This document shows positions 1,447-35,665 of a stretch of DNA of 37,453 nucleotides, in pieces. Positions within the stretch are counted from its first letter, which is position 1. Every line of letters begins with the position of its first letter. The DNA lies in IMG/VR virus record IMGVR_UViG_2563366824_000006; one strand, 5' to 3'. Origin of the DNA: a virus (Duplodnaviria > Heunggongvirae > Uroviricota > Caudoviricetes > Peduoviridae). The notes under the pieces are model-generated. The model did no database searches, was not told the DNA's origin, and saw only the letters and a list, made by a program, of their open reading frames with translations. The position numbers and the translations under genes were made by a program.

Positions 1447-1533
1447 GCTGAAAAACATAACCCATAAAATGCTAGCTGTACCAGGAACCACCTCCTTAGC
1501 CTGTGTAATCTCCCTTACACGGGCTTATTTTTT
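1447..1533 (+). ncRNA. cyaR: CyaR (RyeE) Hfq-dependent small RNA; its 3' terminator overlaps the phage att core
   Basis: Sequence gctgaaaaacataacccataaaatgctagctgtaccaggaaccacctccttagcctgtgtaatctcccttacacgggcttatttttt matches my recollection of E. coli CyaR, including the C-rich anti-SD loop (ccuccuu) and the terminator hairpin plus U-tract. Not checked against Rfam. Confidence 0.75.
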
Positions 1534-1534
1534 A
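1507..1534. repeat. Prophage attachment-site core, ogr-proximal copy (28-bp direct repeat)
   Basis: aatctcccttacacgggcttatttttta is repeated exactly at 35638..35665; it corresponds to the P2 att core as I remember it and lies inside the cyaR terminator. Confidence 0.85.
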
Positions 1535-1596
1535 CGCGTAATACAATGAAATAAAAGGATTTATTTCTGGTCACGTCCACACATTGACCACATCGA

Positions 1597-1627
1597 CAAA
1601 AAAAGCCCCTCGACTGAGGGGCTTTCT
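1597..1627 (-). terminator. Intrinsic terminator downstream of ogr
   Basis: Stem agcccctc / gaggggct (1604-1611 / 1616-1623) with 4-nt loop; on the minus strand it is followed by an 8-T run (plus-strand A-run 1597-1604). Confidence 0.6.
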
Positions 1628-1635
1628 GCCTGTAA

Positions 1636-1854
1636 TTACATCCACATAATTTGCTGCCCTGACGGCAACGGGTGCGGCCTTACGGTGTGGACTTCTCCCG
1701 GCTTCACGATGTATCTCTGTACCGACTCATAGGTGATGAACGTGGCGCTGCAATTCACGTTCTGGCACTGGTGATAACGCTCTTTTGTCGTGTCAGTGAT
1801 ATAGCGACTTGTACGCGCATGTGCGGCATGCTGGCATAAAGGACAATGAAACAT
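1636..1854 (-). CDS. ogr: Late-gene transcription activator Ogr (zinc-finger)
   Basis: 72-aa product from the internal Met of ORF 1636..1917 (MFHCPLCQHAAHARTSRYITDTTKERYHQCQNVNCSATF...); near-identical to P2 Ogr from memory; Cys-x2-Cys...Cys-x4-Cys zinc finger. Confidence 0.85.
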   Translation of the reverse strand: MFHCPLCQHAAHARTSRYITDTTKERYHQCQNVNCSATFITYESVQRYIVKPGEVHTVRPHPLPSGQQIMWM

Positions 1855-1935
1855 CGCGAGCACCTCTTCCGGTTTTGTTGATGGTGCCATTTTAGTTATT
1901 TTATCCTTATAAAACAAACAGATAAAATAAAGACA

Positions 1936-3099
1936 TCACTCATCATCTTCTGTTTCATACTCCACATCAGAAAGCCTGACCTCAAGCTCCAAGGACGTCG
2001 TGAAGCCGCTATTATTCAGAAAATGTGTCACCTTAGTGATTGTCCAGTCCTGCTCGTCTATGACGCGCTTAAAGCCAGACACTCTGACCGGTGTTTCCGT
2101 GTAAATATCTGCCCGACCAGTGGCAAGGCTGATGGAGAACTCCGCAACGCCCCGTTGCAGTTTGTCCCACTTCGCCTGAGCGGCGCGCATGGCCTGCGCT
2201 TTCGTGGCATATACCGTAGTCAGGGCAAAAACGTTGTCAGCCTCACCGGCCATGTATTCACCTTCGCGCGCTTCCGGTACTTTTGGCGCTTTCTTCTGCG
2301 TGACCGGTTTCGCTTTCGGGTGCTCCAGTGCGCGCAGGTGTTTCTCTTTCTTTTTGCGTTTCAGTTTTACCTTCTGCTTTTGCGGCTTCGGGTCTTTGGT
2401 GTGTAACCACTTTGCCGTTACGCCGGTGTAGGCTCCACGGTCAGCAATCGCAAAATGATGACGGTCGCCGTCGCTGCGGGTGATGGTAATCTGCGGGATT
2501 TTTTTACCGCTGGCCGTCACCCCCTGCCCCGCTTTGAGAAACAACAATTTTCCCATTTTTACCGACACCTCACCGCCGTTGCGTTCAGCAAGGCGGGTCA
2601 GGAATTTTGCATCAGACTCCTGCGACTGGTCGATGTGCGGGATTTTAATTCCGGCCAGTGACGGAGCGACACTGGCTTCCAGCCTGTTACGGGAGGCTAT
2701 CGCCTCAACAATCGCACCGAGCGTGGTGTCATGCCATGAGCCTTCCCGGCGGGAATTGAGCGTCCCGCGAAAATCTGCACTCCGGGCGCGGATGGTAACC
2801 ACATCCGGCGCGCCCCGGTGTTCAACCTCATCAACGGTAAATTTCCCTTTGCATACCAGGGCAAAACCTTTCCAGCCGATATACACCGTCAGGACAGCGC
2901 CACGAACCGGCAGCCCGACCTGCCCGTCGGCATCGTTCAGTTCAATATCAAGCTGGTCAGCCTCAAAGCCCCGGTTATCCGTCAGGGTCATGCTCATCAG
3001 ACGGTCGCTGATATTGCCGGTAATATCCCTGCTGTCGAGCATCAGCATGTAATCCGGCGTCAGCGTACTGCCTGCATCAAATGTCAGCGCATCCAGCAT
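1936..3099 (-). CDS. D: Tail protein D (late control gene D family)
   Basis: 387-aa ORF; length and sequence consistent with P2 gpD; start overlaps the U stop (TAATG). Confidence 0.88.
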   Translation of the reverse strand: MLDALTFDAGSTLTPDYMLMLDSRDITGNISDRLMSMTLTDNRGFEADQLDIELNDADGQVGLPVRGAVLTVYIGWKGFALVCKGKFTVDEVEHRGAPDVVTIRARSADFRGTLNSRREGSWHDTTLGAIVEAIASRNRLEASVAPSLAGIKIPHIDQSQESDAKFLTRLAERNGGEVSVKMGKLLFLKAGQGVTASGKKIPQITITRSDGDRHHFAIADRGAYTGVTAKWLHTKDPKPQKQKVKLKRKKKEKHLRALEHPKAKPVTQKKAPKVPEAREGEYMAGEADNVFALTTVYATKAQAMRAAQAKWDKLQRGVAEFSISLATGRADIYTETPVRVSGFKRVIDEQDWTITKVTHFLNNSGFTTSLELEVRLSDVEYETEDDE

Positions 3100-3578
3100 T
3101 ATCCCGCCCCCGTCATACCCGTGAATTTAGTCGCCATACTGCCAGCCTTACCGATGAGCGATTCCGCCTGTTTACCGATATCGCCATAAAGCGCGGCCAG
3201 TGATTCATCAACGCGGGTGAGCGACAGCGTAAAATCAATTTTTCGGGGTGTGCCGTCTGCAAAGAAAATACTCCCTGTTTCACTCACCCTGCTGATGACA
3301 TACATGCCGTAAATCATGCCGGTGCCATCCAGCAACGGCCACGCCCGACCTTCCTCTGCCATCAGCCTGAGCGTAGTCATCGTCAGCTTTCCGCCGGTCA
3401 GCTCGGGATAAAGCACACCGGCAAGCGTGATGTTTTCCTCGCCAACACCGAGAAACTGAAAGGCATCCCGTTTACCGATACGGGAATTTGACGGCCAGCG
3501 ATAATCTGATTCACGCTGCATGGTCTGGTGTGGCAGCGTCTGGCGCATAAAAACAAACATACCTAACGCGAGCATCAT
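3099..3578 (-). CDS. U: Tail protein U
   Basis: 159-aa ORF in the P2 position between T and D; size matches P2 gpU. Confidence 0.85.
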   Translation of the reverse strand: MMLALGMFVFMRQTLPHQTMQRESDYRWPSNSRIGKRDAFQFLGVGEENITLAGVLYPELTGGKLTMTTLRLMAEEGRAWPLLDGTGMIYGMYVISRVSETGSIFFADGTPRKIDFTLSLTRVDESLAALYGDIGKQAESLIGKAGSMATKFTGMTGAG

Positions 3579-3592
3579 TTTTCGTCACCTCC

Positions 3593-6040
3593 TTAACCGT
3601 CATGCATCATGCTGGCACGGGCGCGCGCACGTTTATCCCGCTCGTATTTTTCGAGCGCATCCTGTAACTGGCGGTCAAGCTGTGTCTCCGGCGCAGTACC
3701 GCCCGTCAGGCTGATGTGATATTCGTTTTTACTCTGGTCCACATAAGAGCGGCCAGCCGGTGCCGTGACCGGCTGATAAGCCTGATAGCCTGCATAAGAG
3801 CTGGTCGCCGGAATATAACCACCGGTGCCATACGTGGCGGCATTAGTCCTTGCGGCGGTCTGGTCAAGTGTGTCTGACTCTTTGTTGATAACACCGAGTT
3901 TTTCCAGTACCCAGTCAATACCATTGCGCAGTTTGTTGAACGCATTAAGCGGCAGCATCAACGCGTCAGCCAGTGCCTGCCCGAACATGACGCCCGTGTC
4001 ACGGCAACGGTTCAGGGTGTCCTGTGTGGCTTTAACCGGGGCAATCAGGTTTTTAAACCACTGCCACGAGGCCTGTAACTTTTCGCCCAGCCAGTCAAAC
4101 ACCGGCTTAAGTGGTGTGAACAGTTCCCCCACCGGCGCAAATGCCGCTTTCAGCCCTTCCACCACACCGCCAAAGAATGCGCTGACAGGCTCCCAGTATT
4201 TACGGATAAGCAACGCCCCGGCGACAATAGCGGCCACCACAGCCACAACCGGCCAGCTAATCGCCCCGATGGCGGTCATAACAGCACTGCCAACCGTCGT
4301 GAAGATTGCCCCCATTGCGCCTGCTGCCGCGATGATGGCATTAATGCCGGTGATAACCGGCCAGGCTACAAGACCAATTGCACCGATGATGCCAGTAAGC
4401 GCCAGTGCGCCACCGACAATGAGGCCGATGGTTGACGCCAGTGATTTGTTTTTCTGGATCCAGCCGTCGAGTTTTAACACATACTTTGTGGCCGTCTGTG
4501 TGAGCTTACGCAGTGCGCCTTCCTGCTGGTCAAACAGGTCAGTCCCCACCGCCTCATAAGCGGACTGAAACTCCTTAAAGTCACCGCCGAGGTTGTCCTG
4601 CATGATATTTACCAGCTCGGCGGTCTTCCCGTCTGAGGCTTTAAACGCAGCGGTCAGTTTGTCCAGCTTTCCGGTTGAGGCGGCTGTCATCAGCACGGCG
4701 GCGGCTGAGCTGGCCTCCTCCCCGAAAATAGTTTTCATGTATTCAGCCTGCTGGGCAGTACCGAGCCGGTTTTTCTCAAAACTGGCCTGCATTTCTTTCA
4801 GAATGGTAAATACTGGTCGGGTATTCCCCTTGCTGTCTGAGGTTTTCACGCCAAGCTCTTTGAGTGCATCCCATGCTTTTCCCGTCGGTGCCTGCAGGCG
4901 GCTTAACACGGCACGGCTTCCCGTCCCCGCCATTGAACCTGTGATTTTTGCATCATGCAGCGCCCCGACCATTGCGGCGGTTTCTTCAATGCTGACACCG
5001 GCATTTTTTGCCACAGGTGCGGCATAGGTCAGCGCATCGCTCATGCCGTCAAAATCAGCGGCGGTTTTGTTCATCGTCATGGAGAGAACATCCCCGATAT
5101 GAGCGACCTTATCGTTTGAAAGCTGAAAGGCGGATTTCATCCCCATCAGCAGGGCGGCGTTTTCTTCCATCGTGCGGCGGTTCGCCTGTGCCATATTCAG
5201 CGTGACCGGCGTTGCCGCCTGAATGGCATCAACATCCCCACCGGCTTTCGCAATGATAATCTGTGCACCGGCTGCATCATCCGCCGAGGCGGCGGTATTG
5301 TCGCCGAGCTGGCGCGCCTGTTTGCGTAGTGCGGTCATTTCGGCGGAGTCTTTTGCCACTCCGAGCACGGCCTGCAATTCTGAGTTTTTCTGCGCAAACT
5401 CATAACCGGGCATCAGCAGCTTAACTCCGGCCATCGTTCCCGCCGCCGCAATCCCCACACCGGCAGCACCCACTGAGGCCATATTTCCGGCCAGTTCCTT
5501 TCCGGCCTGATAACGCTGTTTTACTGCGTTAAGTTTTGCCTGTTGTGCACTGACACGCGCCAGCGCGTCGCGCTGTCGGTTAAGCTGTGCGGTGGTTTCA
5601 CTGATACGGTTTTTCAGTCCCTGCTCATCATGTGCAAGATTGCGGGTATTAATTCCCACAGCGGCCAGTTCCCGCTGCTGGCGTTTAACGGAATCTGTCA
5701 GGCGGTTATATTTCGCCTGTAAGTCCTCCACCGCACGCTTTGCGGATTCCAGCACTTTCGCCTGAGCACGGGTCGGACGTTCGGTGTTTTTAAACTGTGT
5801 GGCAAGGGCTTCGGCTTCCTGCCGTGCCTTTTCAAGTGCATGACCAGTCACGGCGAGCTGTGCACTGGTCTTGCGGAATCCCTCAATACGGGATGCGTGA
5901 CCGTTCAGCTCGCGCAGTGATTTTTGTGTTTCCCGGATATCCCCCGACAGCGACTTACTCGCTGTGCGGATGGATTTAAACGGGCGGGATGCCTGGTCAA
6001 CAGCCCTGAGCAATACCTGTAATTTTACATTGTTACTCAT
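3593..6040 (-). CDS. T: Tail tape measure protein T
   Basis: 815-aa ORF with coiled-coil N-terminal part and Ala/Gly-rich hydrophobic middle typical of tape-measure proteins; position and length match P2 gpT. Confidence 0.9.
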   Translation of the reverse strand: MSNNVKLQVLLRAVDQASRPFKSIRTASKSLSGDIRETQKSLRELNGHASRIEGFRKTSAQLAVTGHALEKARQEAEALATQFKNTERPTRAQAKVLESAKRAVEDLQAKYNRLTDSVKRQQRELAAVGINTRNLAHDEQGLKNRISETTAQLNRQRDALARVSAQQAKLNAVKQRYQAGKELAGNMASVGAAGVGIAAAGTMAGVKLLMPGYEFAQKNSELQAVLGVAKDSAEMTALRKQARQLGDNTAASADDAAGAQIIIAKAGGDVDAIQAATPVTLNMAQANRRTMEENAALLMGMKSAFQLSNDKVAHIGDVLSMTMNKTAADFDGMSDALTYAAPVAKNAGVSIEETAAMVGALHDAKITGSMAGTGSRAVLSRLQAPTGKAWDALKELGVKTSDSKGNTRPVFTILKEMQASFEKNRLGTAQQAEYMKTIFGEEASSAAAVLMTAASTGKLDKLTAAFKASDGKTAELVNIMQDNLGGDFKEFQSAYEAVGTDLFDQQEGALRKLTQTATKYVLKLDGWIQKNKSLASTIGLIVGGALALTGIIGAIGLVAWPVITGINAIIAAAGAMGAIFTTVGSAVMTAIGAISWPVVAVVAAIVAGALLIRKYWEPVSAFFGGVVEGLKAAFAPVGELFTPLKPVFDWLGEKLQASWQWFKNLIAPVKATQDTLNRCRDTGVMFGQALADALMLPLNAFNKLRNGIDWVLEKLGVINKESDTLDQTAARTNAATYGTGGYIPATSSYAGYQAYQPVTAPAGRSYVDQSKNEYHISLTGGTAPETQLDRQLQDALEKYERDKRARARASMMHDG

Positions 6041-6460
6041 TCGTGTTTCCGCTTCGCCGGAGCGCCTTTTCGCGCCATGTGATGAGTTCGGTCAGGCTCA
6101 TGGGATACAGTTCTGATGGCGGCCAGTGAAATATCACTGCCACATCCGCCATCAGGTCATCGACCGAGAGATTTTTCGGAAACGTTACTGCACCGAGTTC
6201 GGCGACAAAAAACTGACCACCTTACCGGCCAGCGCCACAAGGTCAGGCAGTTCCAGTGCGGCGACTTCCTGCTCGGTCAGCATCGGTGCAGTCATGCGCG
6301 GCAGCACCTTAATCAGTGCATCGACTTCGGAGTTCGCGACCGCAGCCAGACTGACACCGCGCAGCGTCCCGGCATTGGGTTTCATCAGCGTGACCTGTTC
6401 GATGACCTGCTCACCACGCTTGACCGGATTGTCCAGGGTAATCACATTTTCTTTGTTCAT
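6033..6460 (-). CDS. E+E': E+E' tail assembly chaperone made by programmed -1 ribosomal frameshift
   Basis: Slippery heptamer TTTTTTG on the minus strand (6212..6206) in the zero-frame context AGT TTT TTG; I translated the -1 frame by hand and obtained FFVAELGAVTFPKNLSVDDLMADVAVIFHWPPSELYPMSLTELITWREKALRRSGNTNE, ending at a TAA (6035..6033) that overlaps the T start codon. Confidence 0.75.
6185..6460 (-). CDS. E: Tail assembly chaperone E
   Basis: 91-aa ORF immediately upstream of T, as in P2; ends ...KVVSFLSPNSVQ. Confidence 0.85.
   Translation of the reverse strand: MNKENVITLDNPVKRGEQVIEQVTLMKPNAGTLRGVSLAAVANSEVDALIKVLPRMTAPMLTEQEVAALELPDLVALAGKVVSFLSPNSVQ
6206..6212 (-). other. -1 frameshift slippery site (T TTT TTG) for E / E+E'
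   Basis: Read directly in the sequence; equivalent in principle to the lambda G/GT and P2 E/E+E' sites. Confidence 0.75.
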
Positions 6461-6516
6461 GGTTTTCTCACTTCTGAATCAGGGTTAACCGGTCAGCCTG
6501 GCTGACCGGATGAAAA

Positions 6517-7035
6517 TCACAGGCCGATATTGCGGCGGTGTTGCTCCAGCCGGTCGACGCCGTTCACCTTCTCAATCATGTTGATGGTGTCGATTTCGAC
6601 CAGCTCCTTACCGTCCAACGTCAGCCGGAAATAGGTGCAGACCACGGAGATTTTCGACTCAGTGTCTTCTCCCTGTTTCCCCTCGCCGGTGTCGATTTCT
6701 TTCTGACGTCCACGCATGACCACCTCGACGGCCACCGTTTCGCCGGTATCGTCGCGCTGGTAAGAGCCAGCAAAACGAATCGGTACGGCATCCACGCCGG
6801 TTGCGGCGTAGAGCTCCCAGATAACCGAATCCGGGAAGCCCCCGAGCGACCACTCCATTGACAGCGCATCGTCATCAAGGCCGAGGTCTACCGGTGCGCT
6901 GCCGTTCATCCCCGCACCGCGATAGTTTTCGAGCTTACGGGTCAGTTTTGGCAGCGTGACGGACTTTGCAACGCCCTGATAGCTGTAGCCGTTCAGAAAG
7001 ACGTTCATTAACTTGAGTTTGCGCGGCATTGCCAT
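6517..7035 (-). CDS. FII: Tail tube protein FII
   Basis: 172-aa ORF; position and size match P2 FII. Confidence 0.88.
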   Translation of the reverse strand: MAMPRKLKLMNVFLNGYSYQGVAKSVTLPKLTRKLENYRGAGMNGSAPVDLGLDDDALSMEWSLGGFPDSVIWELYAATGVDAVPIRFAGSYQRDDTGETVAVEVVMRGRQKEIDTGEGKQGEDTESKISVVCTYFRLTLDGKELVEIDTINMIEKVNGVDRLEQHRRNIGL

Positions 7036-7047
7036 CGCTCAGGCTCC

Positions 7048-8361: not shown

Positions 8362-8601
8362 TGTCCTGATTTGTACTCACTCATTTTCCGACTGACAATT
8401 TACATAGCCCAAACGCTATCAATTCTGACAGTCTGCTTTGAGCGAGGAGCAGACCTTCACGCTTTTCGCTGTTGAGTGACATGAATTATTAAAGAGCATT
8501 ATAAAACTTCACTTTTTCTAATTTCAATGCTTTATTAAAGTCAGCGACATTCAGGATTATCAATTCAATATTAATATACCATCAGCATTATATAAGAGGT
8601 A

Positions 8602-9760: not shown

Positions 9761-9802
9761 ATGTTAGTAATGTCCGCTCTTCGCACGCAGCGGACATTGC
9801 TA
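9761..9802. repeat. Hairpin-containing repeat, copy 1 (15-17 bp stem, 10-nt loop)
   Basis: ttagtaatgtccgct (9763..9777) pairs with agcggacattgctaa (9788..9802) with one G-T wobble; the 42-nt segment matches 10859..10900 at 28 of 42 positions by my manual alignment. Confidence 0.6.
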
Positions 9803-9922
9803 ATAGCGGTCTATGTGAAACACGGGGAGTAGGTTAGTTTTAGCGTTAAACACAATAAGAGCACGATGAAGTATCAAAAAGGAAGCATTGCATAGATAAT
9901 TTAGGCAAAAACAGAGCTTAAA

Positions 9923-10858: not shown

Positions 10859-10900
10859 TGTTAGCTACTTCCGCTCCTGGCACAGAGCGGACTGTCAGAT
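10859..10900. repeat. Hairpin-containing repeat, copy 2 (degenerate copy of 9761..9802)
   Basis: Core tccgctc / gagcgga stem (10870-10876 / 10885-10891); an alternative 9-bp stem ggcacagag / ctctgtgcc (10879-10887 / 10910-10918). Confidence 0.55.
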
Positions 10901-11481: not shown

Positions 11482-11484
11482 AAA

Positions 11485-15683: not shown

Positions 15684-15687
15684 GGTT

Positions 15688-20259: not shown

Positions 20260-20262
20260 GCG

Positions 20263-20975: not shown

Positions 20976-21074
20976 GACTACCTCTGAAAAGTCGGGCGGT
21001 GGACGCCGGTGCAGTGTCAGGTGATTCACCCTCACTGACCGGCGTGCCGCCCTGGCGCGGGGCGCATTCGGTTG

Positions 21075-21818: not shown

Positions 21819-21821
21819 CGG

Positions 21822-22895: not shown

Positions 22896-22953
22896 AGTTT
22901 TTCCTGAAATTAAGGGTTAATCGTGAAGGTTTTCCCGGACTGGCTGACGCCGG

Positions 22954-26957: not shown

Positions 26958-26976
26958 GTGCTTTCCCCGCCTCGCC
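26958..26976. other. cos site (19-nt cohesive-end sequence)
   Basis: gtgctttccccgcctcgcc is the reverse complement of GGCGAGGCGGGGAAAGCAC, the P2 cohesive end as I remember it; located just beyond Q as in P2. Confidence 0.8.
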
Positions 26977-29697: not shown

Positions 29698-31986
29698 TTA
29701 CTTAAAAAGATCAAAGCCACTAAAAAACTGCTTCCACTCACCACTTATTGGATATATAAACTTTCGTCCGTCAAACTTTACCGTCGCGCCACGCGCCAGC
29801 GCCTCAAGCTCCCATCGCTGCGGCCTGATACCGTTCTGAGCAAGGTCAACGCGGATACGGTTGATTTGCAATCGTTCCGACCGGGTCAGTCTGGCAGATG
29901 GTGCCATTTCATACTGTTTTAACGGGCTTCCGTTTCTCTGCTGACGATTTGGTGTTCTCAGCCCGTGTTTTAATGCGCCCCTGAGCGCCCTCACGACCTC
30001 CGGGTCATTCCATTCGATAACACCGTCATCAACCAGATTAAGCACTGCTGCGGCGTGCTCAGAAGGCGTGGGAGCCGGTAACGAAGTATTACCGCCGGTG
30101 AGCTTTCCACAGTTATTGACAGGACTCCGAGGCGCGGCGATGCCGCTTTTTAAAGTCAAAGGCTCAACGACCGGAACTTTCGGCACAATGCGCCAGTCCG
30201 TCGTTCTGGTGATATGAATATGGCGCGCGCCGAGATGCGGCGCGTAAATGCCGACCACTCTCTCGACCTCTTCCTCGTACTCGTTAACGTCATCCGACGG
30301 GCTACGGGCGACCCTGACAGTCTGACAATCGCGCGGGACATTTGCCCCACCCTGCGCGCTGATATACAACGCAAAATCACCACTGTCTGCGGCGGCGCGT
30401 GCAGCCTCGACGCGCTCGTCAAACTCATCAGCAATGCTGACGCCGCGCGGCAATTTGCGTAGTTCACGGTAAGCCCCCATTGTCGGCAGACCAACCGTTT
30501 TAAATTGCGGGATGCGCCACGTTGACGCCCATGCAGTAACAGCCGCGGCAGTATCTTTCAGAGGTCTGCCGGTATCGTTATCGAGCTGACCATCCAGTGC
30601 ATAGCCGTCGATGTTTTTTGAGATGTATTTCGCGATATACCCCGCAGCACCGCCCCGATTAAGGTGTTTTGCCTGAAAACGGTTTCGCGCGGCTCCTCTT
30701 TCGTCGCCATCCTCTTTGAGCGCATAGCGACGCATGATTTCGATAATCTGGTTACGCTGGCGCGGATTACAAAAAAGCATCATATGCCAGTGCGGCGTTC
30801 CGTCGTGGTGTGGCTCGACGACACGCAAACCGTAGACCTGTAAATCATTATCCTTGAATGCCGTGCGCATCAGGCTCCAGATACGGCAGAGATAACGCTG
30901 CGCATCCTTTGGATTAAATGCCTCATCGTTCCAGCCGTGATTTAGCTGGACGGTTTTACTTTCGCCTTTTCTGACCTGACGTGTCGGGTGATACTTTGAC
31001 GGCGCGGTCAGCGTGATAAACATCCCTACATCACCCTCTGCTGCGGCGTAACGCTCAATACCGGCAATGGTGTTCATCAGCTCCATCCGGCGAATTTCAG
31101 GATTAGAAATACTGCCCATCACCTTACTGATAAGGTCGATGCGCTCGCCGGTTTCCCTGTTTTCGAGATCACACGATTTAAGAAATTCCAGGTTTGCCTG
31201 GCGGCGTGCACGCACATCACGAATGGCATGTTTACTGGCATAAGGAGAACGGTCTTTATTGACCTCCCCGACAGCAATCAGTAACGCCTCATGCCAGCGC
31301 ATACGCTGGCCTTTAAACTGATGAGTCCACCACTCATCGTTAAACAGACGGGCAATGGCAGAATATGCCTGCCTCGTGGTCATCTGCCCTTTACGGTATT
31401 TTTTCCAGTAGAGAGGGGAAATATTGAAAGCACGTGCAGCGCCAGCAACATGACCATAGAGGTGAGCCTGCGCCTCATCCGTAAACAGCGATTCTTTTTC
31501 GCCATGCGCATCCACCCAGGCATCGCTGAGTTCCTCATACATCATGAAAAGCTGCGATGAGATACGGGCAGCAAACTTTTTCAGCTCCTTGTCATTCATT
31601 CCCGGCAGGCGCGCATAGTGGTCACGCTCTGCCAGAAACAGTAACGACGCGTCGGTGTTCATTTCATGGCGCTGATTCACACGCTCAATGCGCGGCCATA
31701 AACGACGCTGAAAAGTGGATGTGAGGAAATAAAACCCGTGCACCGGGCTTTTATTGCGCCGGATGTAGTCATAGCGTGAAGTAAACAGCGAGCGCAAAAA
31801 GTAAGGCAGGCGGTTAATCGTGGATAAAACACCTTGCACCTGACGCATCTCGTCACGTGTAAGGGGTCTTTCGCGCCCGACAGCCTCGCGTGGCGCGTTC
31901 CATGCATAAGCACCGGTAAACGCCTTACCGGTGCCTGCAGCAAATGCTGACGGAGGGACAAAACGCCCGGAGGCTTTAACGGCCAT
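29698..31986 (-). CDS. A: Rolling-circle replication initiator A
   Basis: 762-aa product from the internal Met (MAVKASGRFVPPSAFAAGTGK...); matches P2 gpA from memory. Confidence 0.88.
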   Translation of the reverse strand: MAVKASGRFVPPSAFAAGTGKAFTGAYAWNAPREAVGRERPLTRDEMRQVQGVLSTINRLPYFLRSLFTSRYDYIRRNKSPVHGFYFLTSTFQRRLWPRIERVNQRHEMNTDASLLFLAERDHYARLPGMNDKELKKFAARISSQLFMMYEELSDAWVDAHGEKESLFTDEAQAHLYGHVAGAARAFNISPLYWKKYRKGQMTTRQAYSAIARLFNDEWWTHQFKGQRMRWHEALLIAVGEVNKDRSPYASKHAIRDVRARRQANLEFLKSCDLENRETGERIDLISKVMGSISNPEIRRMELMNTIAGIERYAAAEGDVGMFITLTAPSKYHPTRQVRKGESKTVQLNHGWNDEAFNPKDAQRYLCRIWSLMRTAFKDNDLQVYGLRVVEPHHDGTPHWHMMLFCNPRQRNQIIEIMRRYALKEDGDERGAARNRFQAKHLNRGGAAGYIAKYISKNIDGYALDGQLDNDTGRPLKDTAAAVTAWASTWRIPQFKTVGLPTMGAYRELRKLPRGVSIADEFDERVEAARAAADSGDFALYISAQGGANVPRDCQTVRVARSPSDDVNEYEEEVERVVGIYAPHLGARHIHITRTTDWRIVPKVPVVEPLTLKSGIAAPRSPVNNCGKLTGGNTSLPAPTPSEHAAAVLNLVDDGVIEWNDPEVVRALRGALKHGLRTPNRQQRNGSPLKQYEMAPSARLTRSERLQINRIRVDLAQNGIRPQRWELEALARGATVKFDGRKFIYPISGEWKQFFSGFDLFK

Positions 31987-32251
31987 ATGAGCCAAAAGCC
32001 TCTGAACAACGCTTGCTGAGTCGCTCAACCTGCGCGTTTAAATCAGCAAAAGACTTTGCGCTTCCGGTCAGAATATCGTGATGCATCAGGCCGGAAACGA
32101 GCTGGTTTAATTTCGGGTAATAACCAACCACCGCCAGCCATTCCTGACCGGCGTTTTTACCGCTTTCCGCTCTCTTTTTCTCGTGGAGAATAAACTGAAA
32201 GCTGTCACTGGTAACGACATAACGTTCGCCAATTTCAATACGAATACTCAT
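31976..32251 (-). CDS. Hypothetical protein (P2 orf83 position)
   Basis: 91-aa ORF in the small-ORF cluster between B and A. Confidence 0.6.
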   Translation of the reverse strand: MSIRIEIGERYVVTSDSFQFILHEKKRAESGKNAGQEWLAVVGYYPKLNQLVSGLMHHDILTGSAKSFADLNAQVERLSKRCSEAFGSYGR

Positions 32252-32472
32252 GCCGTTCTCCGGTAATGTTTGTTTTTTGCTTCAAAGACTGACTGACAGG
32301 AAACACAACGCGTGGCTGACGGATAAGCCGCACGACGGGCAGCAGGTATTGGCGCGTCACACTCTTCGCAAACCAGCGCAGAAGCACCGCAATGTTTTAC
32401 CCTTGCCGCGTTAATCTGACGCTCCAGTAATTCAGCCTGTTGTTCCTGAATAAAATCTACGTTGTCCGGCAT
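32248..32472 (-). CDS. TraR/DksA-family C4 zinc-finger protein (P2 orf82 position)
   Basis: 74-aa ORF with CGASALVCEEC...CVSC (four Cys in two CxxC pairs). Confidence 0.65.
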   Translation of the reverse strand: MPDNVDFIQEQQAELLERQINAARVKHCGASALVCEECDAPIPAARRAAYPSATRCVSCQSVFEAKNKHYRRTA

Positions 32473-32777
32473 TACCAGCTCCTTTTGTCGTTAAGTTTTT
32501 TAAATTCATCAGCGCAATAGCTGGCAATTTCTGTCGTTAATTTTGTGAGTTCATCCACGGAGGAGATTTTCTTGTGAAATACAGCGCGTTTAACAAGTAA
32601 ATTGACCACATCAGACAGGAGATTTAATTCGTTCTGATAAATCGCGATAACAGACTCAGTTATTTCGCGTTTTTCTTTATCAAGACCAAGTTGAATAAGA
32701 GATAAATCGCCATTTTTCATAACGGCGATTTTTAAGGCGTTATTCAGTAATACAACTGAACGAGAACAGGACATCAA
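32472..32777 (-). CDS. Hypothetical protein (P2 orf81 position)
   Basis: 101-aa ORF with coupled start/stop overlaps to its neighbours. Confidence 0.6.
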
Positions 32778-32998
32778 AGCACCTCCCCGCGAGACAATCC
32801 GATATTGTGAAATTTTTCCGACTCCTGACTGAGCAGCTCGACTATCTCCACGCGGGATAACTCCGCCTTTGTGATGTGGCGAATCATGGCGTCAAGATGA
32901 GAAGAAAAGCGCGTCGCTGCGTCGGCCTGTGCTTCGGTTCTGGCCTGTTGCAGCAGTAATGCGTATTTACCGCACTGATTTTCAGAAACTGTATGCAT
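32774..32998 (-). CDS. Hypothetical protein (P2 orf80 position)
   Basis: 74-aa ORF downstream of B. Confidence 0.6.
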
Positions 32999-33061
32999 GA
33001 CTTTCTCCAGGCAAAAAGAAGCCCCGCACGATTAAGTGCGTTAAAAACTCTGGTTAATTAC

Positions 33062-33562
33062 TTAATGCAGATATTGCTCTGGTTTTACCGACGTCAGAAT
33101 TGTCGGTGCATACTCAAACAGGCTGAATAATTCACGTAATGCACGGAATAAAGCATCACGCCAGTAACATGATTCTTCATTAATTCGCCAGTATGGCTGG
33201 TTGAATTCTTTTTCAGTCAATCCGGCATGCATAAATAAAGTACGACGCTGACTGACTGTTAAAAAACTAATATATGCATACTCACTTGCGCCAACCTGAC
33301 GGCGTTTTGAGAATGCCCCACGCAATTCATCAATTGCACAAACCAGCCGTTCACGTTCGACGTCGTTCATTTCTTCAAAACGCATCGTTGCGTGACGCTG
33401 TTTTAACTGCGCATGGAAGCAAACCGTTAGCCGTTCGCGTTCCATCATCTGATTATAATAATCACATGTATCCTGCCAGCGAGGGACGGCAAGATGCTTG
33501 CCAATTATCCGGCGCATAGCTGCTGGCTGTTTTTCAACGAGATTGAGCGTCATCACTGTCAT
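33062..33562 (-). CDS. B: Replication protein B (helicase-loader-like)
   Basis: 166-aa ORF; P2 position and size. Confidence 0.85.
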   Translation of the reverse strand: MTVMTLNLVEKQPAAMRRIIGKHLAVPRWQDTCDYYNQMMERERLTVCFHAQLKQRHATMRFEEMNDVERERLVCAIDELRGAFSKRRQVGASEYAYISFLTVSQRRTLFMHAGLTEKEFNQPYWRINEESCYWRDALFRALRELFSLFEYAPTILTSVKPEQYLH

Positions 33563-33729
33563 TTCCAGACCCTCCGGCTTTTCAGAAAGGTCAGAGCCTT
33601 TTTTAACGGACTCTGTTTTTTGGTGCGGATAATGATTCCCTTACGCCCCTTACCGTGGGTGATGGTGAAGTCAATCGCCCTGGGGCTTTCGTTACGCAGT
33701 AACTGAGCAATACAACGAGGCTCATTCAT
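33559..33729 (-). CDS. Hypothetical small protein (P2 orf78 position)
   Basis: Internal Met of ORF 33559..33753 (MNEPRCIAQLLRNE...) avoids overlap with cox; start uncertain. Confidence 0.5.
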   Translation of the reverse strand: MNEPRCIAQLLRNESPRAIDFTITHGKGRKGIIIRTKKQSPLKKALTFLKSRRVWK

Positions 33730-33739
33730 ACGGTTCTCC

Positions 33740-34015
33740 TTAACGTGGTTCACCGAGACCTAACCACATCAACCAGCCGTCACGAATCTCTTTAGGGCGG
33801 CTTTCATAAGCCAGTTTTAGTCCGTTATTCCATGCCGGAAGGTATACCCAATATTCACCTGCACGACCTGAAGCTGATTGTGGATCGGTCATATCAATTA
33901 CAGGCAGCTTTCCTTTATCGATCATCCGACGAACCGCTCCTGTCGATTTTCCTATTAGTTTTGCGAACTCCTGATAAGGAATCGCATCAGTCATGAGTGT
34001 TACTTGCTTGCTCAT
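33740..34015 (-). CDS. cox: Cox: excisionase and repressor of the lysogenic promoter
   Basis: 91-aa ORF MSKQVTLMTDAIPYQEFAKLIGKSTGAVRRMIDKGKLPVID...; matches P2 Cox from memory. Confidence 0.9.
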   Translation of the reverse strand: MSKQVTLMTDAIPYQEFAKLIGKSTGAVRRMIDKGKLPVIDMTDPQSASGRAGEYWVYLPAWNNGLKLAYESRPKEIRDGWLMWLGLGEPR

Positions 34016-34129
34016 GTCGTCCTCTAGCCCTCATGAATTGCGTTTAATGTCTTATAATGCCTTTTAGTGCCCACATCCAAGCACTAAACAATCTACATCT
34101 AAACTAAATACTATTGAGATCTAAACACC
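34016..34129. promoter_or_regulatory. Immunity switch region: face-to-face Pc / Pe promoters with C-repressor operator repeats
   Basis: Perfect TATAAT at 34053..34058 (plus; candidate Pc -10). Exact 8-bp direct repeats atctaaac at 34097..34104 and 34119..34126, 22 bp apart, flank a candidate Pe -10 on the minus strand; a third ctaaac lies at 34084..34089. Confidence 0.6.
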
Positions 34130-34429
34130 ATGTCAAACACGATAAGCGAGAAGATAGTCTTAATGCGAAAATCAGAGTATTTGAGCAGACAACAACTTGC
34201 TGATTTAACAGGGGTTCCGTATGGCACGCTGAGTTACTATGAAAGTGGTCGTTCAACACCTCCAACAGATGTCATGATGAACATCCTGCAGACCCCACAA
34301 TTCACCAAATACACTTTATGGTTCATGACCAATCAGATCGCTCCTGAGTCCGGGCAAATTGCGCCCGCTCTCGCACACTTTGGGCAAAACGAAACAACGT
34401 CGCCCCACTCCGGTCAAAAGACTGGTTAA
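34130..34429 (+). CDS. C: Immunity repressor C
   Basis: 99-aa ORF MSNTISEKIVLMRKSEYLSRQQLADLTGVPYGTLSYYESG...; matches P2 C from memory; helix-turn-helix. Confidence 0.9.
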   Translation: MSNTISEKIVLMRKSEYLSRQQLADLTGVPYGTLSYYESGRSTPPTDVMMNILQTPQFTKYTLWFMTNQIAPESGQIAPALAHFGQNETTSPHSGQKTG

Positions 34430-34544
34430 CAATTCATCGTGAATATATTCATCACAAGTGCCTACTATTGGTGGCTAAATTTCAGCCACCACGAAAAAAG
34501 CGATTAGTAGTCGCAAAAAAACACACCACTCGGAGGGTTTTCTG

Positions 34545-35558
34545 ATGGCAATCAAAAAACTCGATGATGGTCGATATGAAGTGGACATCCGCCCTACTGG
34601 ACGTAATGGAAAACGCATCCGTAGGAAGTTTGATAAGAAAAGCGAAGCTGTCGCTTTCGAGAAATACACGTTGTACAACCACCACAATAAAGAATGGCTA
34701 TCAAAACCAACAGACAAGCGACGTCTGTCGGAGCTGACACAGATCTGGTGGGATTTAAAGGGTAAACACGAAGAGCATGGGAAATCTAATCTTGGAAAAA
34801 TTGAAATCTTCACAAAAATAACGAATGACCCATGCGCATTTCAAATTACGAAATCGCTTATCAGCCAGTACTGCGCCACCCGAAGAAGTCAGGGTATTAA
34901 ACCTTCGAGTATCAATCGTGATTTAACATGTATTAGCGGCATGTTTACAGCCCTGATTGAAGCGGAGTTATTCTTTGGTGAGCACCCTATCAGAGGGACA
35001 AAAAGGCTTAAGGAGGAAAAACCAGACACAGGCTATCTCACGCAGGAAGAAATTGCCTTACTGCTTGCTGCTCTTGACGGCGACAACAAAAAGATTGCGA
35101 TTCTTTGCCTGAGTACTGGAGCACGTTGGGGAGAAGCAGCTCGTTTGAAAGCAGAAAATATCATCCATAACCGCGTCACGTTTGTTAAAACGAAAACAAA
35201 CAAACCACGCACCGTCCCGATCTCAGAGGCTGTTGCCAAAATGATCGCGGATAACAAACGAGGTTTTTTATTCCCTGATGCTGATTACCCTCGCTTCAGA
35301 CGAACAATGAAAGCAATAAAACCGGATTTGCCAATGGGGCAAGCCACACATGCACTAAGGCACAGCTTTGCCACTCATTTCATGATTAATGGAGGAAGTA
35401 TTATCACGCTACAACGGATACTAGGTCACACGCGGATTGAGCAAACTATGGTTTACGCTCATTTTGCGCCAGAGTACCTTCAGGACGCCATTTCTCTTAA
35501 TCCGCTAAGAGGTGGTACTGAGGCCGAGAGTGTCCACACAGTGTCCACAGTAGAGTAA
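34545..35558 (+). CDS. int: Tyrosine integrase
   Basis: 337-aa ORF with C-terminal R...HxxR...Y catalytic signature (HALRHSF...Y); matches P2 Int in size and position, adjacent to att. Confidence 0.9.
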   Translation: MAIKKLDDGRYEVDIRPTGRNGKRIRRKFDKKSEAVAFEKYTLYNHHNKEWLSKPTDKRRLSELTQIWWDLKGKHEEHGKSNLGKIEIFTKITNDPCAFQITKSLISQYCATRRSQGIKPSSINRDLTCISGMFTALIEAELFFGEHPIRGTKRLKEEKPDTGYLTQEEIALLLAALDGDNKKIAILCLSTGARWGEAARLKAENIIHNRVTFVKTKTNKPRTVPISEAVAKMIADNKRGFLFPDADYPRFRRTMKAIKPDLPMGQATHALRHSFATHFMINGGSIITLQRILGHTRIEQTMVYAHFAPEYLQDAISLNPLRGGTEAESVHTVSTVE

Positions 35559-35637
35559 CGTTTAAGGGCTTTCAGTGGTAATTTATGCCGCTCAAACCCG
35601 CATTGTACCGTTGAAAGCCCCTACTGGTGACACCCTA

Positions 35638-35665
35638 AATCTCCCTTACACGGGCTTATTTTTTA
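35638..35665. repeat. Prophage attachment-site core, int-proximal copy (28-bp direct repeat)
   Basis: Exact copy of 1507..1534; the flanking sequence diverges immediately on both sides. Confidence 0.85.

What the first reader, a model, noticed from the sequence alone, without database searches (positions are those of the whole stretch)
1507..35665. P2-identical immunity and structural backbone, but cargo replaced at all three moron loci
Ogr, Cox, C and most structural proteins look essentially identical to P2 from memory, and the prophage has no obvious truncations, frameshifts or insertion sequences, so it is probably inducible. Yet none of the P2 cargo genes (fun/Z, orf30, tin, old) is recognisable; each site holds something else. 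That makes this element a natural experiment in hotspot turnover on a fixed backbone.
Basis: partly seen in the sequence, partly recalled or inferred. Interest (0 to 1): 0.4.

Follow-up and report, generated by a model that had tools for sequence, protein, structure and literature searches.

The report
P2 prophage with swapped defence cargo
This is a complete, apparently viable copy of the well-known coliphage P2 in its usual chromosomal site; two of its three accessory-gene slots carry different predicted anti-phage genes from P2, which is a well-documented pattern and not a new one.

Summary
The window holds a 34.2-kb P2-type prophage (1507-35665) at the classical P2 site locI, in the 3' end of cyaR, between yegQ/trhP and yegR/yegS. 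It is collinear with P2 at 95-98% nt. The C-Cox switch is 100% identical. All essential genes are full length, and cos and att are intact.

The distal tail fibre (H C-terminus plus G) is also swapped.

The A-Q slot holds one RloC-family gene (Rad50-like ATPase, CPFC zinc hook, Arg-Glu-His nuclease triad). The G-FI slot holds two separate single-gene cassettes, an orphan AbiGi-family gene and an uncharacterised M48-like/Lit-resembling metallopeptidase. This slot is bounded exactly by the 30-nt inverted repeat already annotated in other P2 phages, and a third copy lies between the two genes.

The same prophage, with 5 differences, sits in E. coli JNE21-009 between flanks about 2% divergent, so it moved recently. 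P2-type immunity is not UV-inducible, so "probably inducible" is doubtful. Hotspot turnover on a fixed P2 backbone is already well documented.

The parts
1445..1530 (+). Host sRNA gene cyaR (ryeE); its 3' end is the P2 attachment site locI
   Evidence: Rfam RF00112, 100.7 bits, E 3.6e-19. It overlaps the attL core.
1507..1534 (.). attL core (28-nt direct repeat, equal to the P2 attP core)
   Evidence: Exact repeat of 35638-35665. It matches the P2 attP core at 24356-24383.
1636..1854 (-). ogr (late-gene activator)
   Evidence: tblastn with P2 Ogr: 72/72 aligned, 98.6%.
1936..8238 (-). F operon tail genes: D, U, T, E/E', FII, FI
   Evidence: All full length at 97.8-99.4% aa with no gaps. The T-run of the E/E' slippery site is kept.
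8424..8453 (+). FI-side boundary hairpin / inverted repeat of the Z/fun hotspot
   Evidence: 30-nt arm, 83% complementary to 10870-10899. Homology to P2 ends exactly at 8453. The same element occurs in P2 and in the inverted repeats annotated in P2-EC58.
8602..9606 (-). Cargo gene 2 at Z/fun: a 334-aa M48-like, Lit-resembling Zn-metallopeptidase of an uncharacterised family
   Evidence: Pfam M48 22.6 bits (cut-off 20.3). NCBIfam Lit 22 bits (cut-off 274). No PADLOC hit. HExxH (H146, E147, H150), E189, D193 and P257 are near-invariant in 130 relatives. hhalign against K-12 Lit gives probability 43%, E 2.5e-4.
9765..9807 (+). Third, degenerate copy of the boundary hairpin, lying between the two cargo genes
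   Evidence: 29/43 match to the G-side element. 0 of 500 shuffles reach this (maximum 25), and other parts of the window reach at most 26.
9923..10735 (-). Cargo gene 1 at Z/fun: orphan AbiGi-family protein (270 aa, or 283 aa from the upstream ATG at 10774)
   Evidence: Pfam AbiGi 108 bits and PADLOC AbiGi 141 bits. NCBIfam AbiGI equivalog 58.5 bits against a cut-off of 300. No AbiGii partner is present.
10870..10899 (-). G-side boundary hairpin / inverted repeat of the Z/fun hotspot
   Evidence: Homology to P2 resumes exactly at 10870.
10954..14244 (-). Tail-fibre assembly gene G and tail-fibre gene H, with an exchanged distal (receptor-binding) part
   Evidence: G is 74.9% identical. H residues 1-204 are 83.8% identical; the rest is unrelated or 39% identical, and the protein is 919 aa against 669 aa in P2. 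Pfam finds gp37_C. The region is 99.4% nt identical to Peduovirus P22H1.
14255..16667 (-). Baseplate genes I, J, W, V
   Evidence: 92-100% aa identity, full length.
16751..17536 (+). orf30 homologue: P2's own accessory gene, retained
   Evidence: 261 aa, as in P2. 79.8% aa identity over 253 residues. phrog_2407 452 bits, function unknown. Local GC about 40%.
17608..23808 (-). O operon: S, R, lysC/B/A, K, Y, X, L, M, N, O
   Evidence: 90-100% aa identity, full length.
23982..26788 (+). Terminase gene P and portal gene Q
   Evidence: P 100% and Q 98.5% identical.
26958..26976 (.). cos: the 19-nt cohesive-end sequence
   Evidence: Identical to P2 cosL/cosR.
27263..29470 (+). Cargo at the A-Q (tin/old) hotspot: a 735-aa RloC-family protein (Pfam AAA_13, PADLOC candidate PDC-S06)
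   Evidence: AAA_13 350 bits, PDC-S06 845 bits, PrrC 56.5 bits. Motifs: Walker A 30-37, CPFC 254-257, LSEGE 499-503, LIVIDD 531-536, H571, R644-x3-E648-x39-S687-H688. All are invariant in 27 homologues down to 26% identity. AF2 shows long helices on both sides of the CPFC loop, and the top PDB matches are Rad50.
29698..33729 (-). Early operon: A, orf83, orf82, orf81, orf80, B, orf78
   Evidence: 95-100% aa identity. The last 7 residues or so of A differ because the cargo junction (29733/29734) lies in its 3' end.
33740..34429 (.). Immunity switch: cox (33740-34015, -), the Pe/Pc operators, and C (34130-34429, +)
   Evidence: Cox and C are 100% aa identical. The region is 100% nt identical to P2.
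34545..35558 (+). int
   Evidence: 99.7% aa identity.
35638..35665 (.). attR core
   Evidence: Exact repeat of 1507-1534.

Best explanation
The element is a complete Peduovirus prophage, homoimmune with P2, integrated by Int at the classical P2 site locI (the 3' end of cyaR).

Shown:
- Its core differs from P2 only by point divergence of 2-5%.
- Four modules differ from P2:
  (i) the cos-proximal A-Q hotspot, where orf91-tin-old is replaced by one RloC-family gene;
  (ii) the G-FI (Z/fun) hotspot, where fun(Z) is replaced by two independent single-gene cassettes, an orphan AbiGi-family gene and an M48-like metallopeptidase. The hotspot is delimited by a roughly 30-nt hairpin repeat, and homology between P2 phages breaks exactly at that repeat;
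  (iii) the distal tail fibre H/G, a host-range allele shared with other Peduovirus isolates;
  (iv) the S-V slot, which still carries a diverged orf30 allele.

Inferred:
- The three new genes are prophage-expressed anti-phage (abortive-infection type) functions.
- The RloC-like protein would sense a DNA or infection signal through its Rad50-like ATPase and zinc hook, and would cut tRNA anticodon loops with its Arg-Glu-His domain.
- The metallopeptidase would, like Lit, cleave a host or phage protein when triggered.
- The role of the AbiGi-family protein is unknown.
- The cassettes were exchanged by recombination at the conserved flanks and hairpins, independently at each hotspot.
- The phage is viable but, like P2, is released only spontaneously and is not SOS-inducible.
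For: Backbone and intactness:
- (collinear blocks, full-length proteins, 100% identical switch region).
- (att, cos and E/E' slippery site).
- (cyaR).

Recent mobility:
- Against E. coli O166:H15 JNE21-009 the prophage has 5 differences in 34 kb. The flanks carry 34 SNPs in 1.3 kb on the left and 37 in 1.8 kb on the right. The nearest flank differences lie about 200 bp outside attL (1311) and about 60 bp outside attR (35728), so the switch to near-identity falls close to the att cores.

Independent turnover at each hotspot:
- Two other locI prophages carry the same RloC-like gene at 99.7% identity.
- STW0522-31 has three hypothetical genes at G-FI, an empty S-V slot and a different C/Cox.
- MSB1_4E has identical C, Cox and Int proteins, but a DGQHR protein, a hypothetical gene and IS1 at G-FI, and an empty S-V slot.

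RloC features (defined in PMC2610378):
- All sequence motifs are present and invariant.
- Helical arms flank the CPFC loop, and the best PDB matches are Rad50.
- A 31%-identical homologue is named 'wobble nucleotide-excising tRNase' by JGI.
- 'AAA_13' appears as a single-gene arrangement at this hotspot in Rousset Table S5.

Two separate cassettes at G-FI:
- The genes are 316 nt apart, with a third hairpin copy between them.
- Relatives of the peptidase stand alone in six other contexts examined: a P4-like island, a P2/P4 remnant, a Vibrio cassette array, a spot next to SIR2-HerA, and two chromosomal sites.
- Relatives of the AbiGi gene stand alone in five contexts.

Hairpin boundaries:
- They match the inverted repeats annotated in P2-EC58 and P2's own fun(Z) boundaries.

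Non-inducibility:
- PMC1904263; no LexA box near consensus.
Against: - No function was tested. PDC-S06 is only a PADLOC candidate, and I found no experimental validation in the papers searched.
- The peptidase has no PADLOC hit and falls far below the Lit family thresholds. None of 130 relatives matches Pfam Peptidase_U49 at E <= 0.001.
- The AbiGi family is known only as half of a two-gene lactococcal system.
- Promoter-like sites in the cargo are no more frequent than in shuffled sequence, so expression from the prophage is assumed, not shown.
- In P2-type contigs the AbiGi and peptidase genes were adjacent in every contig examined that was long enough to show both (10 shown, out of more than 120 index blocks listed). 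A functional pairing in this phage is therefore not excluded.
- Viability is inferred from sequence alone.
Confidence: 0.8

Rival explanations
1. One reading: a fixed P2 backbone in which all three accessory loci (fun/Z, orf30, tin/old) have been replaced by unrelated genes.
For: Two of the three loci have no similarity to P2. The orf30 region is AT-rich and more diverged than its flanks, at 85-90% nt. This may be why it was not recognised by eye.
Against: Window 16751-17536 is collinear with P2 orf30, has the same length (261 aa), and is 79.8% aa identical with E 8e-131.
Confidence: 0.02
2. The AbiGi-family gene and the M48-like peptidase form one two-gene system, a variant of AbiGi/AbiGii or a toxin-antitoxin-like pair in which the peptidase replaces AbiGii.
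For: The two genes are adjacent and co-oriented. They were adjacent at 100% identity in every P2-type contig examined that was long enough to show both. Pfam labels AbiGi an 'antitoxin'.
Against: There is a 316-nt spacer containing a copy of the cassette-boundary hairpin. None of 6 contexts of peptidase relatives contains an AbiGi gene, and none of 5 contexts of AbiGi relatives contains the peptidase. The constant linkage is seen only among identical copies of one phage lineage, so it counts as a single event.
Confidence: 0.15
3. The prophage is a defective or cryptic remnant that only looks intact.
For: Function cannot be read from sequence. The last residues of gpA differ from P2 because the cargo junction lies in its 3' end. 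Amino-acid substitutions at 1-10% exist in many genes.
Against: All essential genes are full length without gaps, and cos, att, the switch and the slippery site are intact. The same gpA end is present in at least 12 other E. coli prophages that carry this cargo. A near-identical copy sits between att sites in a host whose flanks are about 2% diverged, which implies recent infection and integration. The length of 34.1 kb is about 102% of P2.
Confidence: 0.1
4. The replaced cargo is not anti-phage. It might serve host fitness, virulence or phage-internal functions, for example a regulatory protease of the ImmA/IrrE type.
For: About a quarter of P2-like phages carry a putative plasmid-partition system at the A-Q hotspot, and about 2% carry a cytolethal distending toxin (PMC9122126). 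Two of 130 relatives of the peptidase hit Pfam M78 (IrrE/ImmA). No defence phenotype is published for any of the three genes in the papers searched.
Against: The RloC family has demonstrated anticodon-nuclease activity and a proposed anti-phage role (PMC2610378). Relatives of the peptidase and of AbiGi recur next to known defence genes such as SIR2-HerA, GmrSD, a TIR-domain protein (CAP12-PCTIR_TIR) and DUF4238, and in P4-like hotspots. There is no adjacent HTH repressor partner, which an ImmA-type protease would need.
Confidence: 0.15

Closest known systems
Bacteriophage P2 (AF063097 / NC_001895), type species Peduovirus P2
   Same: Gene order, att core, cos, Ogr, Int and all structural and replication genes are shared at 90-100% aa identity. 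The C-Cox switch is 100% nt identical. The integration site is locI. orf30 is retained.
   Different: fun(Z), orf91, tin and old are absent. The distal part of H, and G, are exchanged. Orf30 is only 80% identical. The genome is 34.1 kb against 33.6 kb for P2.
P2-like prophage of E. coli O166:H15 JNE21-009 (NZ_AP041814.1, 2433.5-2467.6 kb)
   Same: It is the same phage, with 5 differences over 34 kb, the same three cargo genes and the same site.
   Different: The host flanks are about 2% diverged. There the RloC-like gene is annotated as frameshifted (A7 instead of A8 at window position about 27598-27606). In the window the gene is intact.
RloC, the wobble-nucleotide-excising anticodon nuclease (Davidov & Kaufmann 2008, PMC2610378), and its relative PrrC
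   Same: ABC-ATPase motifs, a coiled-coil insert with a CxxC zinc hook, and a C-terminal Arg-x3-Glu-x36-52-(Ser)His triad. The gene is solitary and not linked to a restriction-modification locus.
   Different: PADLOC files the protein only as candidate PDC-S06. It is carried by a phage hotspot.
Lit, the cell-death peptidase of prophage e14 (MEROPS/Pfam U49)
   Same: Both are prophage-borne single genes of about 300 aa. The HExxH, RExxAD and (S/N)THP motifs align (hhalign E 2.5e-4). NCBIfam Lit matches at E 7e-5.
   Different: Scores are far below the family cut-offs (22 against 274 bits). hhalign probability is only 43%. None of 130 relatives reaches Pfam U49 at E <= 0.001, while 18 reach M48. 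The N-terminal domain is different. The target and trigger are unknown.
AbiG of Lactococcus (AbiGi + AbiGii)
   Same: The protein is a Pfam and PADLOC AbiGi family member.
   Different: There is no AbiGii gene here or next to close relatives. The NCBIfam equivalog score is 58.5 against a cut-off of 300. The gene stands alone in islands, prophage ends and ICE-like elements.
P2 'Z-region' variants P2-EC30/EC58/EC67 (AJ512676-AJ512685) and the P2 defence hotspots of Rousset et al. 2022 and Moura de Sousa et al. 2026
   Same: Cargo is replaced between G and FI inside the same inverted repeats, and between A and Q. Turnover occurs without change of the core.
   Different: This particular G-FI cargo is found in 1 of 5,426 complete E. 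coli genomes and in no deposited phage record. A third hairpin copy splits the locus into two cassettes.

Membership tests
Peduovirus P2 (P2-immunity group) | Collinear genome with P2 core genes and high nucleotide identity | tested here: met
   Three collinear blocks at 95-98% nt identity. All core proteins are full length.
Peduovirus P2 (P2-immunity group) | P2 immunity specificity: the C repressor, its operators and Cox | tested here: met
   C and Cox are 100% aa identical. Window 33601-34800 is 100% nt identical to P2. Homoimmunity itself was not assayed.
Peduovirus P2 (P2-immunity group) | P2 Int/att specificity and integration at locI | tested here: met
   Int is 99.7% identical. The 28-nt att core is duplicated at both ends, and attL lies in the 3' end of cyaR between yegQ and yegR/yegS.
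Peduovirus P2 (P2-immunity group) | Non-inducibility by UV/SOS | not testable with these tools
   Expected from the P2-identical switch and the absence of a near-consensus LexA box. No tum gene was searched for by sequence. An induction experiment is needed.
RloC (anticodon nuclease) | ABC-ATPase motifs: Walker A, signature, Walker B/D-loop and switch His | tested here: met
   GQNGCGKS 30-37, LSEGE 499-503, LIVIDD 531-536 and H571, all invariant in alignment A2.
RloC (anticodon nuclease) | Coiled-coil insert with a central CxxC zinc hook that splits the ATPase head | tested here: met
   CPFC 254-257 is invariant. The AF2 model has long helices at 90-141 and 264-448 around the 248-263 loop. The best PDB matches are Rad50 with coiled coil. 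This rests on a model, not a solved structure.
RloC (anticodon nuclease) | C-terminal Arg-x3-Glu-x36-52-His triad, with Ser often before His | tested here: met
   R644-x3-E648-x39-S687-H688, invariant in 27 homologues.
RloC (anticodon nuclease) | tRNA anticodon-loop cleavage with excision of the wobble nucleotide | not testable with these tools
   This is a biochemical property.
Lit / Peptidase U49 | Reaches the family model threshold (Pfam PF10463 or NCBIfam NF007238) | tested here: not met
   No PF10463 hit for the window protein, even at E <= 10. NF007238 scores 22.1 bits against a cut-off of 274. 0 of 130 relatives reach PF10463 at E <= 0.001.
Lit / Peptidase U49 | HExxH zinc site plus a downstream Glu/Asp motif | tested here: met
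   H146, E147, H150, E189 and D193 are conserved in at least 90% of 130 relatives. These motifs align with those of Lit. The feature is shared with M48 and so is not specific to Lit.
Lit / Peptidase U49 | Cleavage of EF-Tu triggered by the phage T4 Gol peptide | not testable with these tools
   This is an experimental property, recalled from established knowledge of Lit.
Peptidase M48 | Reaches the Pfam PF01435 gathering score | tested here: inconclusive
   22.6 bits against a cut-off of 20.3, with no single stretch significant on its own. Only 18 of 130 relatives match. PGAP names the protein 'M48 family metalloprotease'. Foldseek against the PDB gave no significant match.
AbiG system (AbiGi + AbiGii) | AbiGi-family protein | tested here: met
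   PF10899 scores 108 bits against a cut-off of 22.4. PADLOC AbiGi scores 141 bits.
AbiG system (AbiGi + AbiGii) | Adjacent AbiGii partner gene | tested here: not met
   The only neighbouring ORF of size is the M48-like gene. No AbiGii was found next to relatives in 5 contexts.
P2 Z/fun ('TO') hotspot cassette | Cargo lies between G and FI, inside the conserved inverted repeats | tested here: met
   The arms lie at 8424-8453 and 10870-10899, and homology to P2 breaks exactly at their inner ends. The element is shared with P2 and with the annotated repeats of P2-EC58.

The most novel reading that the evidence does not exclude
Two things are not excluded.

(1) The 334-aa HExxH protein may represent a small, undescribed family of stand-alone abortive-infection metallopeptidases. 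It has about 130 clusters at 50% identity among 1.84 billion proteins. The family is related to, but distinct from, Lit and M48. It travels as a single-gene cassette between P2 and P4 hotspots, defence islands and Vibrio cassette arrays.

(2) The roughly 30-nt hairpin that bounds the P2 G-FI hotspot may be a recombination site that lets cassettes stack in tandem. Each gene here is followed by one copy in the same orientation. That would be an integron-like cassette array inside a phage tail-gene cluster.
Probability: 0.3. Interest if true: 0.5.

Novelty: new member of a known kind. Interest (0 to 1): 0.25.

Why it matters
As posed, the finding mainly re-observes a documented rule: P2-like phages keep a near-constant core and swap short defence cargo at a few hotspots. 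Its value is as a clean, fully delimited example.

- The immunity region is identical to P2.
- The swap boundaries are exact to the base.
- One slot is retained, two are replaced, and the host-range module is replaced as well.
- Sister prophages show each slot assorting independently.

Three practical points follow.

- A lysogen should be immune to P2 and may exclude other phages through a tRNA-cutting RloC-type enzyme, which has not been validated in a P2 context.
- The M48-like peptidase and the orphan AbiGi gene are cheap, testable single-gene defence candidates.
- The hairpin-bounded two-cassette structure gives a concrete handle on how the G-FI hotspot exchanges genes.

Tried and rejected
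- Foldseek of the peptidase model (pLDDT 82) against the PDB found nothing significant. BepA (M48) was at E 0.5.
- The viral fold library gave one uncharacterised Myoviridae protein at E 4e-5.
- Sequence searches of the PDB gave nothing for either cargo protein.
- Promoter and terminator scans of both cargo regions were at chance level for promoters, so no transcription-unit claim is made.
- No boundary repeats were found at the A-Q hotspot.
- LexA-box searches found no near-consensus site, and the loose pattern matched at chance frequency.
- Megablast of both cargo regions against 50,697 phage records matched only the flanks.
- Literature searches for PDC-S06 and Peptidase_U49 found no functional test of these genes.
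- Christie & Calendar 2016 (PMC4836473) is not held. Nilsson et al. 2004 could not be read, so its inverted repeats were taken from the GenBank annotation of AJ512683.
- I considered and rejected reading the many short 'AAA family ATPase, partial' proteins as frequent frameshifts. Most of those listed are labelled 'partial' by their sources, so they look like truncated records rather than frameshifts.

Full report
**What is in the window**

ORF listing, base composition and megablast against phage records show a Peduovirus genome in reverse orientation relative to the P2 map. It carries three AT-rich islands, at about 8.3-11.5 kb, 16.7-17.6 kb and 27.0-29.6 kb.

The flanks are host genes. On the left are a U32 peptidase (yegQ/trhP) and the sRNA gene cyaR (Rfam 100.7 bits). 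On the right are yegR and the lipid kinase gene yegS.

A 28-nt direct repeat identical to the P2 attP core lies at 1507-1534 and 35638-35665, and the left copy overlaps the 3' end of cyaR. From my own knowledge, this is the classical P2 site locI, the place that in K-12 holds the ogrK/yegZ remnant.

**Check of the observation against P2 (AF063097)**

blastn gives three collinear blocks:
- 1507-8453 at 96.5%.
- 13639-26976 at 95.3%.
- 29734-35665 at 97.9%.

The cos flank also matches, and gene G shows a weak 78.6% match. There is no match for 8454-10869 or for 27007-29733.

tblastn with all 42 P2 proteins returns full-length, gap-free matches for every essential gene:
- P, K, Y, W, C, Cox, Orf78 and Orf82 at 100%.
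- Ogr at 98.6% and Int at 99.7%.
- The other core proteins at 90-99.7%.

The 19-nt cohesive end is identical, and the T-run of the E/E' slippery site is kept. A 300-nt sliding comparison shows 100% nt identity over 33601-34800, which is the whole C-Pe/Pc-cox switch.

So the 'P2-identical immunity and structural backbone, no truncations' part is confirmed. The prophage is 34.16 kb, about 102% of P2.

P2 orf30 lies inside the second collinear block. Window 16751-17536 encodes a protein of the same length (261 aa). It is 79.8% identical to P2 Orf30 (E 8e-131) and 85-90% identical at nt level. fun(Z), orf91, tin and old give no hit.

Two of the three loci are therefore replaced, and one holds a diverged allele of P2's own gene.

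- H is 919 aa against 669 aa in P2. Only residues 1-204 resemble P2, at 84%.
- G is 75% identical.
- A T4 gp37_C-type domain is present.
- This allele is 99.4% identical to that of Peduovirus P22H1 and common in other isolates.

**Cargo at the A-Q (tin/old) hotspot**

There is one gene, 27263-29470 (+), 735 aa.
- Pfam AAA_13 scores 350 bits.
- PADLOC candidate PDC-S06 scores 845 bits, with a weaker PrrC hit of 56.5 bits over residues 434-716.

Davidov & Kaufmann (PMC2610378) define RloC by three features: ABC-ATPase motifs, a coiled-coil insert with a CxxC zinc hook, and a C-terminal Arg-x3-Glu-x36-52-His triad in which Ser often precedes His. The window protein has all of them:
- Walker A at 30-37.
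- CPFC at 254-257.
- LSEGE at 499-503.
- LIVIDD at 531-536.
- H571.
- R644-x3-E648-x39-S687-H688.

Every one of these residues is invariant in an alignment of 27 homologues down to 26% identity.

An AlphaFold model (pLDDT 81.5) has a split ATPase head and long helices around the CPFC loop, followed by a helical C-domain. Its best PDB matches are Rad50 with coiled coil, then SMC heads, LmuB and PtuA. JGI names a 31%-identical homologue 'wobble nucleotide-excising tRNase'.

I therefore file it as an RloC-family protein. The enzymatic activity and any anti-phage effect are inferred.

The gene is common:
- Near-identical DNA next to gpA occurs in 13 of 5,426 complete E. coli genomes.
- About 60 more genomes match at roughly 71% identity.
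- 'AAA_13' is listed as a single-gene arrangement at this hotspot in Rousset et al., Table S5.
- No functional test of PDC-S06 was found.

**Cargo at the G-FI (Z/fun) hotspot**

There are two co-oriented genes, 316 nt apart.

*The AbiGi-family gene (9923-10735)*
- Pfam AbiGi scores 108 bits and PADLOC AbiGi scores 141 bits.
- It reaches only 58.5 bits against the 300-bit cut-off of the lactococcal AbiGI equivalog.
- It has no AbiGii partner.
- Relatives at 60-91% identity stand alone in varied mobile contexts:
  - a Pantoea chromosome;
  - a Klebsiella island with GmrSD, a TIR-domain protein (CAP12-PCTIR_TIR) and DUF4238;
  - the end of a Serratia prophage;
  - an ICE-like element.
  They often sit next to umuC-like genes.

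*The metallopeptidase gene (8602-9606)*
- It encodes a 334-aa HExxH protein.
- Word-based search of 5.8 billion proteins finds only 28 clusters.
- A profile search of 1.84 billion representatives finds 130, of which 13 are below E 1e-30.
- H146, E147, H150, E189, A192, D193, P257 and R262 are conserved in at least 90% of these.
- It barely passes Pfam M48 (22.6 bits against 20.3) and has no PADLOC hit.
- It resembles Lit of prophage e14 only weakly. NCBIfam Lit gives 22 bits against a cut-off of 274. hhalign gives 43% probability and E 2.5e-4, aligning the HExxH, RExxAD and THP motifs.
- Of the 130 relatives, 18 hit M48, 2 hit M78 and none hit Peptidase_U49 at E <= 0.001.
- It is therefore not a member of the Lit family. 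It is an uncharacterised M48-like family that may work like Lit.
- Its relatives are always solitary and sit in defence-type places:
  - a P4-like island next to an AAA_21 + DUF4276 pair;
  - a P2/P4 remnant in Providencia;
  - a Vibrio array of small cassettes with RelE/MqsA;
  - a spot next to SIR2 + DUF87(HerA) and SymE;
  - a chromosomal site in Enterobacter.

**Anatomy of the G-FI swap**

The region with no P2 match (8454-10869) is bracketed exactly by a 30-nt inverted repeat, 8424-8453 and 10870-10899, 83% complementary. The same element, TCTGACAGTCYGCTYTGWGCSAGGAGCRGA, bounds fun(Z) in P2. It also lies inside the 'left/right inverted repeat' annotated in the P2-EC58 Z-region entry AJ512683.

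A third, degenerate copy lies at 9765-9807, between the two genes. It matches the G-side element plus 13 further nt at 29 of 43 positions. No shuffle out of 500 reaches this (maximum 25), and no other part of the window exceeds 26.

Each gene is thus followed by one hairpin copy in the same orientation. Together with the solitary relatives, this favours two independently acquired cassettes over one operon.

Against that reading, in P2-type contigs from public assemblies the two genes were adjacent at 100% identity in every contig examined that was long enough to show both (10 shown, out of more than 120 index blocks listed). That reflects one circulating phage lineage.

This cargo is rare in finished genomes (1 of 5,426) and absent from 50,697 phage records.

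**Is the phage alive, and is it inducible?**

The one complete genome with the same G-FI cargo is E. coli O166:H15 JNE21-009. It carries the same prophage with only 5 differences over 34 kb, one of which is a 1-nt loss in an A8 tract that frameshifts the RloC-like gene there. By contrast the host flanks differ at 34 sites in 1.3 kb on the left and 37 in 1.8 kb on the right. The nearest flank differences lie about 200 bp outside attL and about 60 bp outside attR. This pattern is what integration of one phage into two different hosts would give, and it argues for recent infectivity.

'Inducible' is another matter:
- Non-inducibility by UV was one of the original classification criteria of the P2-like phages, and a P2 lysogen releases about 4.5e-4 phage per cell spontaneously (PMC1904263).
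- SOS-inducible relatives need a LexA-controlled Tum antirepressor (PMC11195241).
- This element has P2's exact switch and no near-consensus LexA box. I did not search for a tum homologue by sequence.

**Comparison with what is known**

Independent turnover of the slots can be seen directly. Two other locI prophages carry the same RloC-like gene at 99.7% identity:
- STW0522-31 has three unrelated hypothetical genes at G-FI, an empty S-V slot, and a different C/Cox.
- MSB1_4E has identical C, Cox and Int proteins, but a DGQHR protein, a hypothetical gene and IS1 at G-FI, and an empty S-V slot.

This is the behaviour already described in the literature:
- Rousset et al. 2022 found 1,650 arrangements in 18,150 A-Q loci, with old and tin confirmed as defences.
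- Moura de Sousa et al. [quoted passage not shown]
- The Z-region GenBank entries linked to Nilsson et al. 2004 document the same variation.

**Verdict**

The backbone, the immunity region, the intactness and two replaced loci hold. The claim about orf30 is wrong.
Turnover is real, but it did not occur at all three loci, the phage is probably not SOS-inducible, and the phenomenon is not new.
- The residual novelty lies in the uncharacterised M48-like peptidase family, the orphan AbiGi gene and the hairpin-delimited two-cassette structure. None of these was tested functionally.
- Interest 0.25; novelty: new member of a known kind.

Noticed in passing
window 27598-27606 (inside the RloC-like gene): An A8 homopolymer is the site of the single-base loss that makes this gene 'frameshifted' in the otherwise near-identical prophage of E. 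coli JNE21-009. It could be a slip-prone inactivation site or a homopolymer assembly error.
   Followed up: partly
window 8424-8453, 9765-9807, 10870-10899: The roughly 30-nt hairpin element bounds the G-FI hotspot and recurs between the two cargo genes. Each gene is followed by a copy in the same orientation, which resembles a cassette array. The element occurs nowhere else in the window.
   Followed up: partly
window 1-1440 and 35666-37453, compared with L002: The host flanks are about 2% diverged from JNE21-009, while the prophage between the att cores differs at only 5 positions. The same phage sits in two host lineages.
   Followed up: yes
window 10954-14244: The distal tail fibre (H C-terminus with a gp37_C-type domain, plus G) is exchanged relative to P2 and is 99.4% identical to Peduovirus P22H1. 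This is a host-range module swap that the finding did not mention.
   Followed up: yes
L018 (STW0522-31) and L031 (MSB1_4E), S-V intergenic region: In two sister prophages that carry the same RloC-like gene, the orf30 slot is empty (about 66 nt between S and V). orf30 is thus a presence/absence accessory gene, and here the slot is occupied by the P2-type allele.
   Followed up: partly
L016 (Vibrio campbellii), L008 (Pectobacteriaceae), L015 (Providencia), L029 (metagenome): Relatives of the M48-like peptidase occur as solitary genes in four settings: a Vibrio array of small cassettes with RelE/MqsA, a P4-like island beside an AAA_21 + DUF4276 pair, a P2/P4 remnant, and next to SIR2 + HerA and SymE.
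   Followed up: partly
L010, L011, L030: Close relatives of the AbiGi-family gene repeatedly lie beside umuC/umuD-like genes (Pfam IMS, Peptidase_S24) in islands or ICE-like elements.
   Followed up: no
window 29698-29733 (3' end of gene A): The A-Q cargo junction lies inside the last codons of replication gene A, so the C-terminal 7 residues or so of gpA differ from P2, and P2's overlapping orf91 is lost. The same gpA end is present in the other E. coli prophages with this cargo.
   Followed up: partly
window 8342-8362 (- strand): A strong terminator-like hairpin (9-bp GC-rich stem followed by a T-run) lies between the Z/fun cargo and the FI gene, on the FI side of the boundary hairpin. It would insulate the cargo genes from the late F operon.
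   Followed up: no
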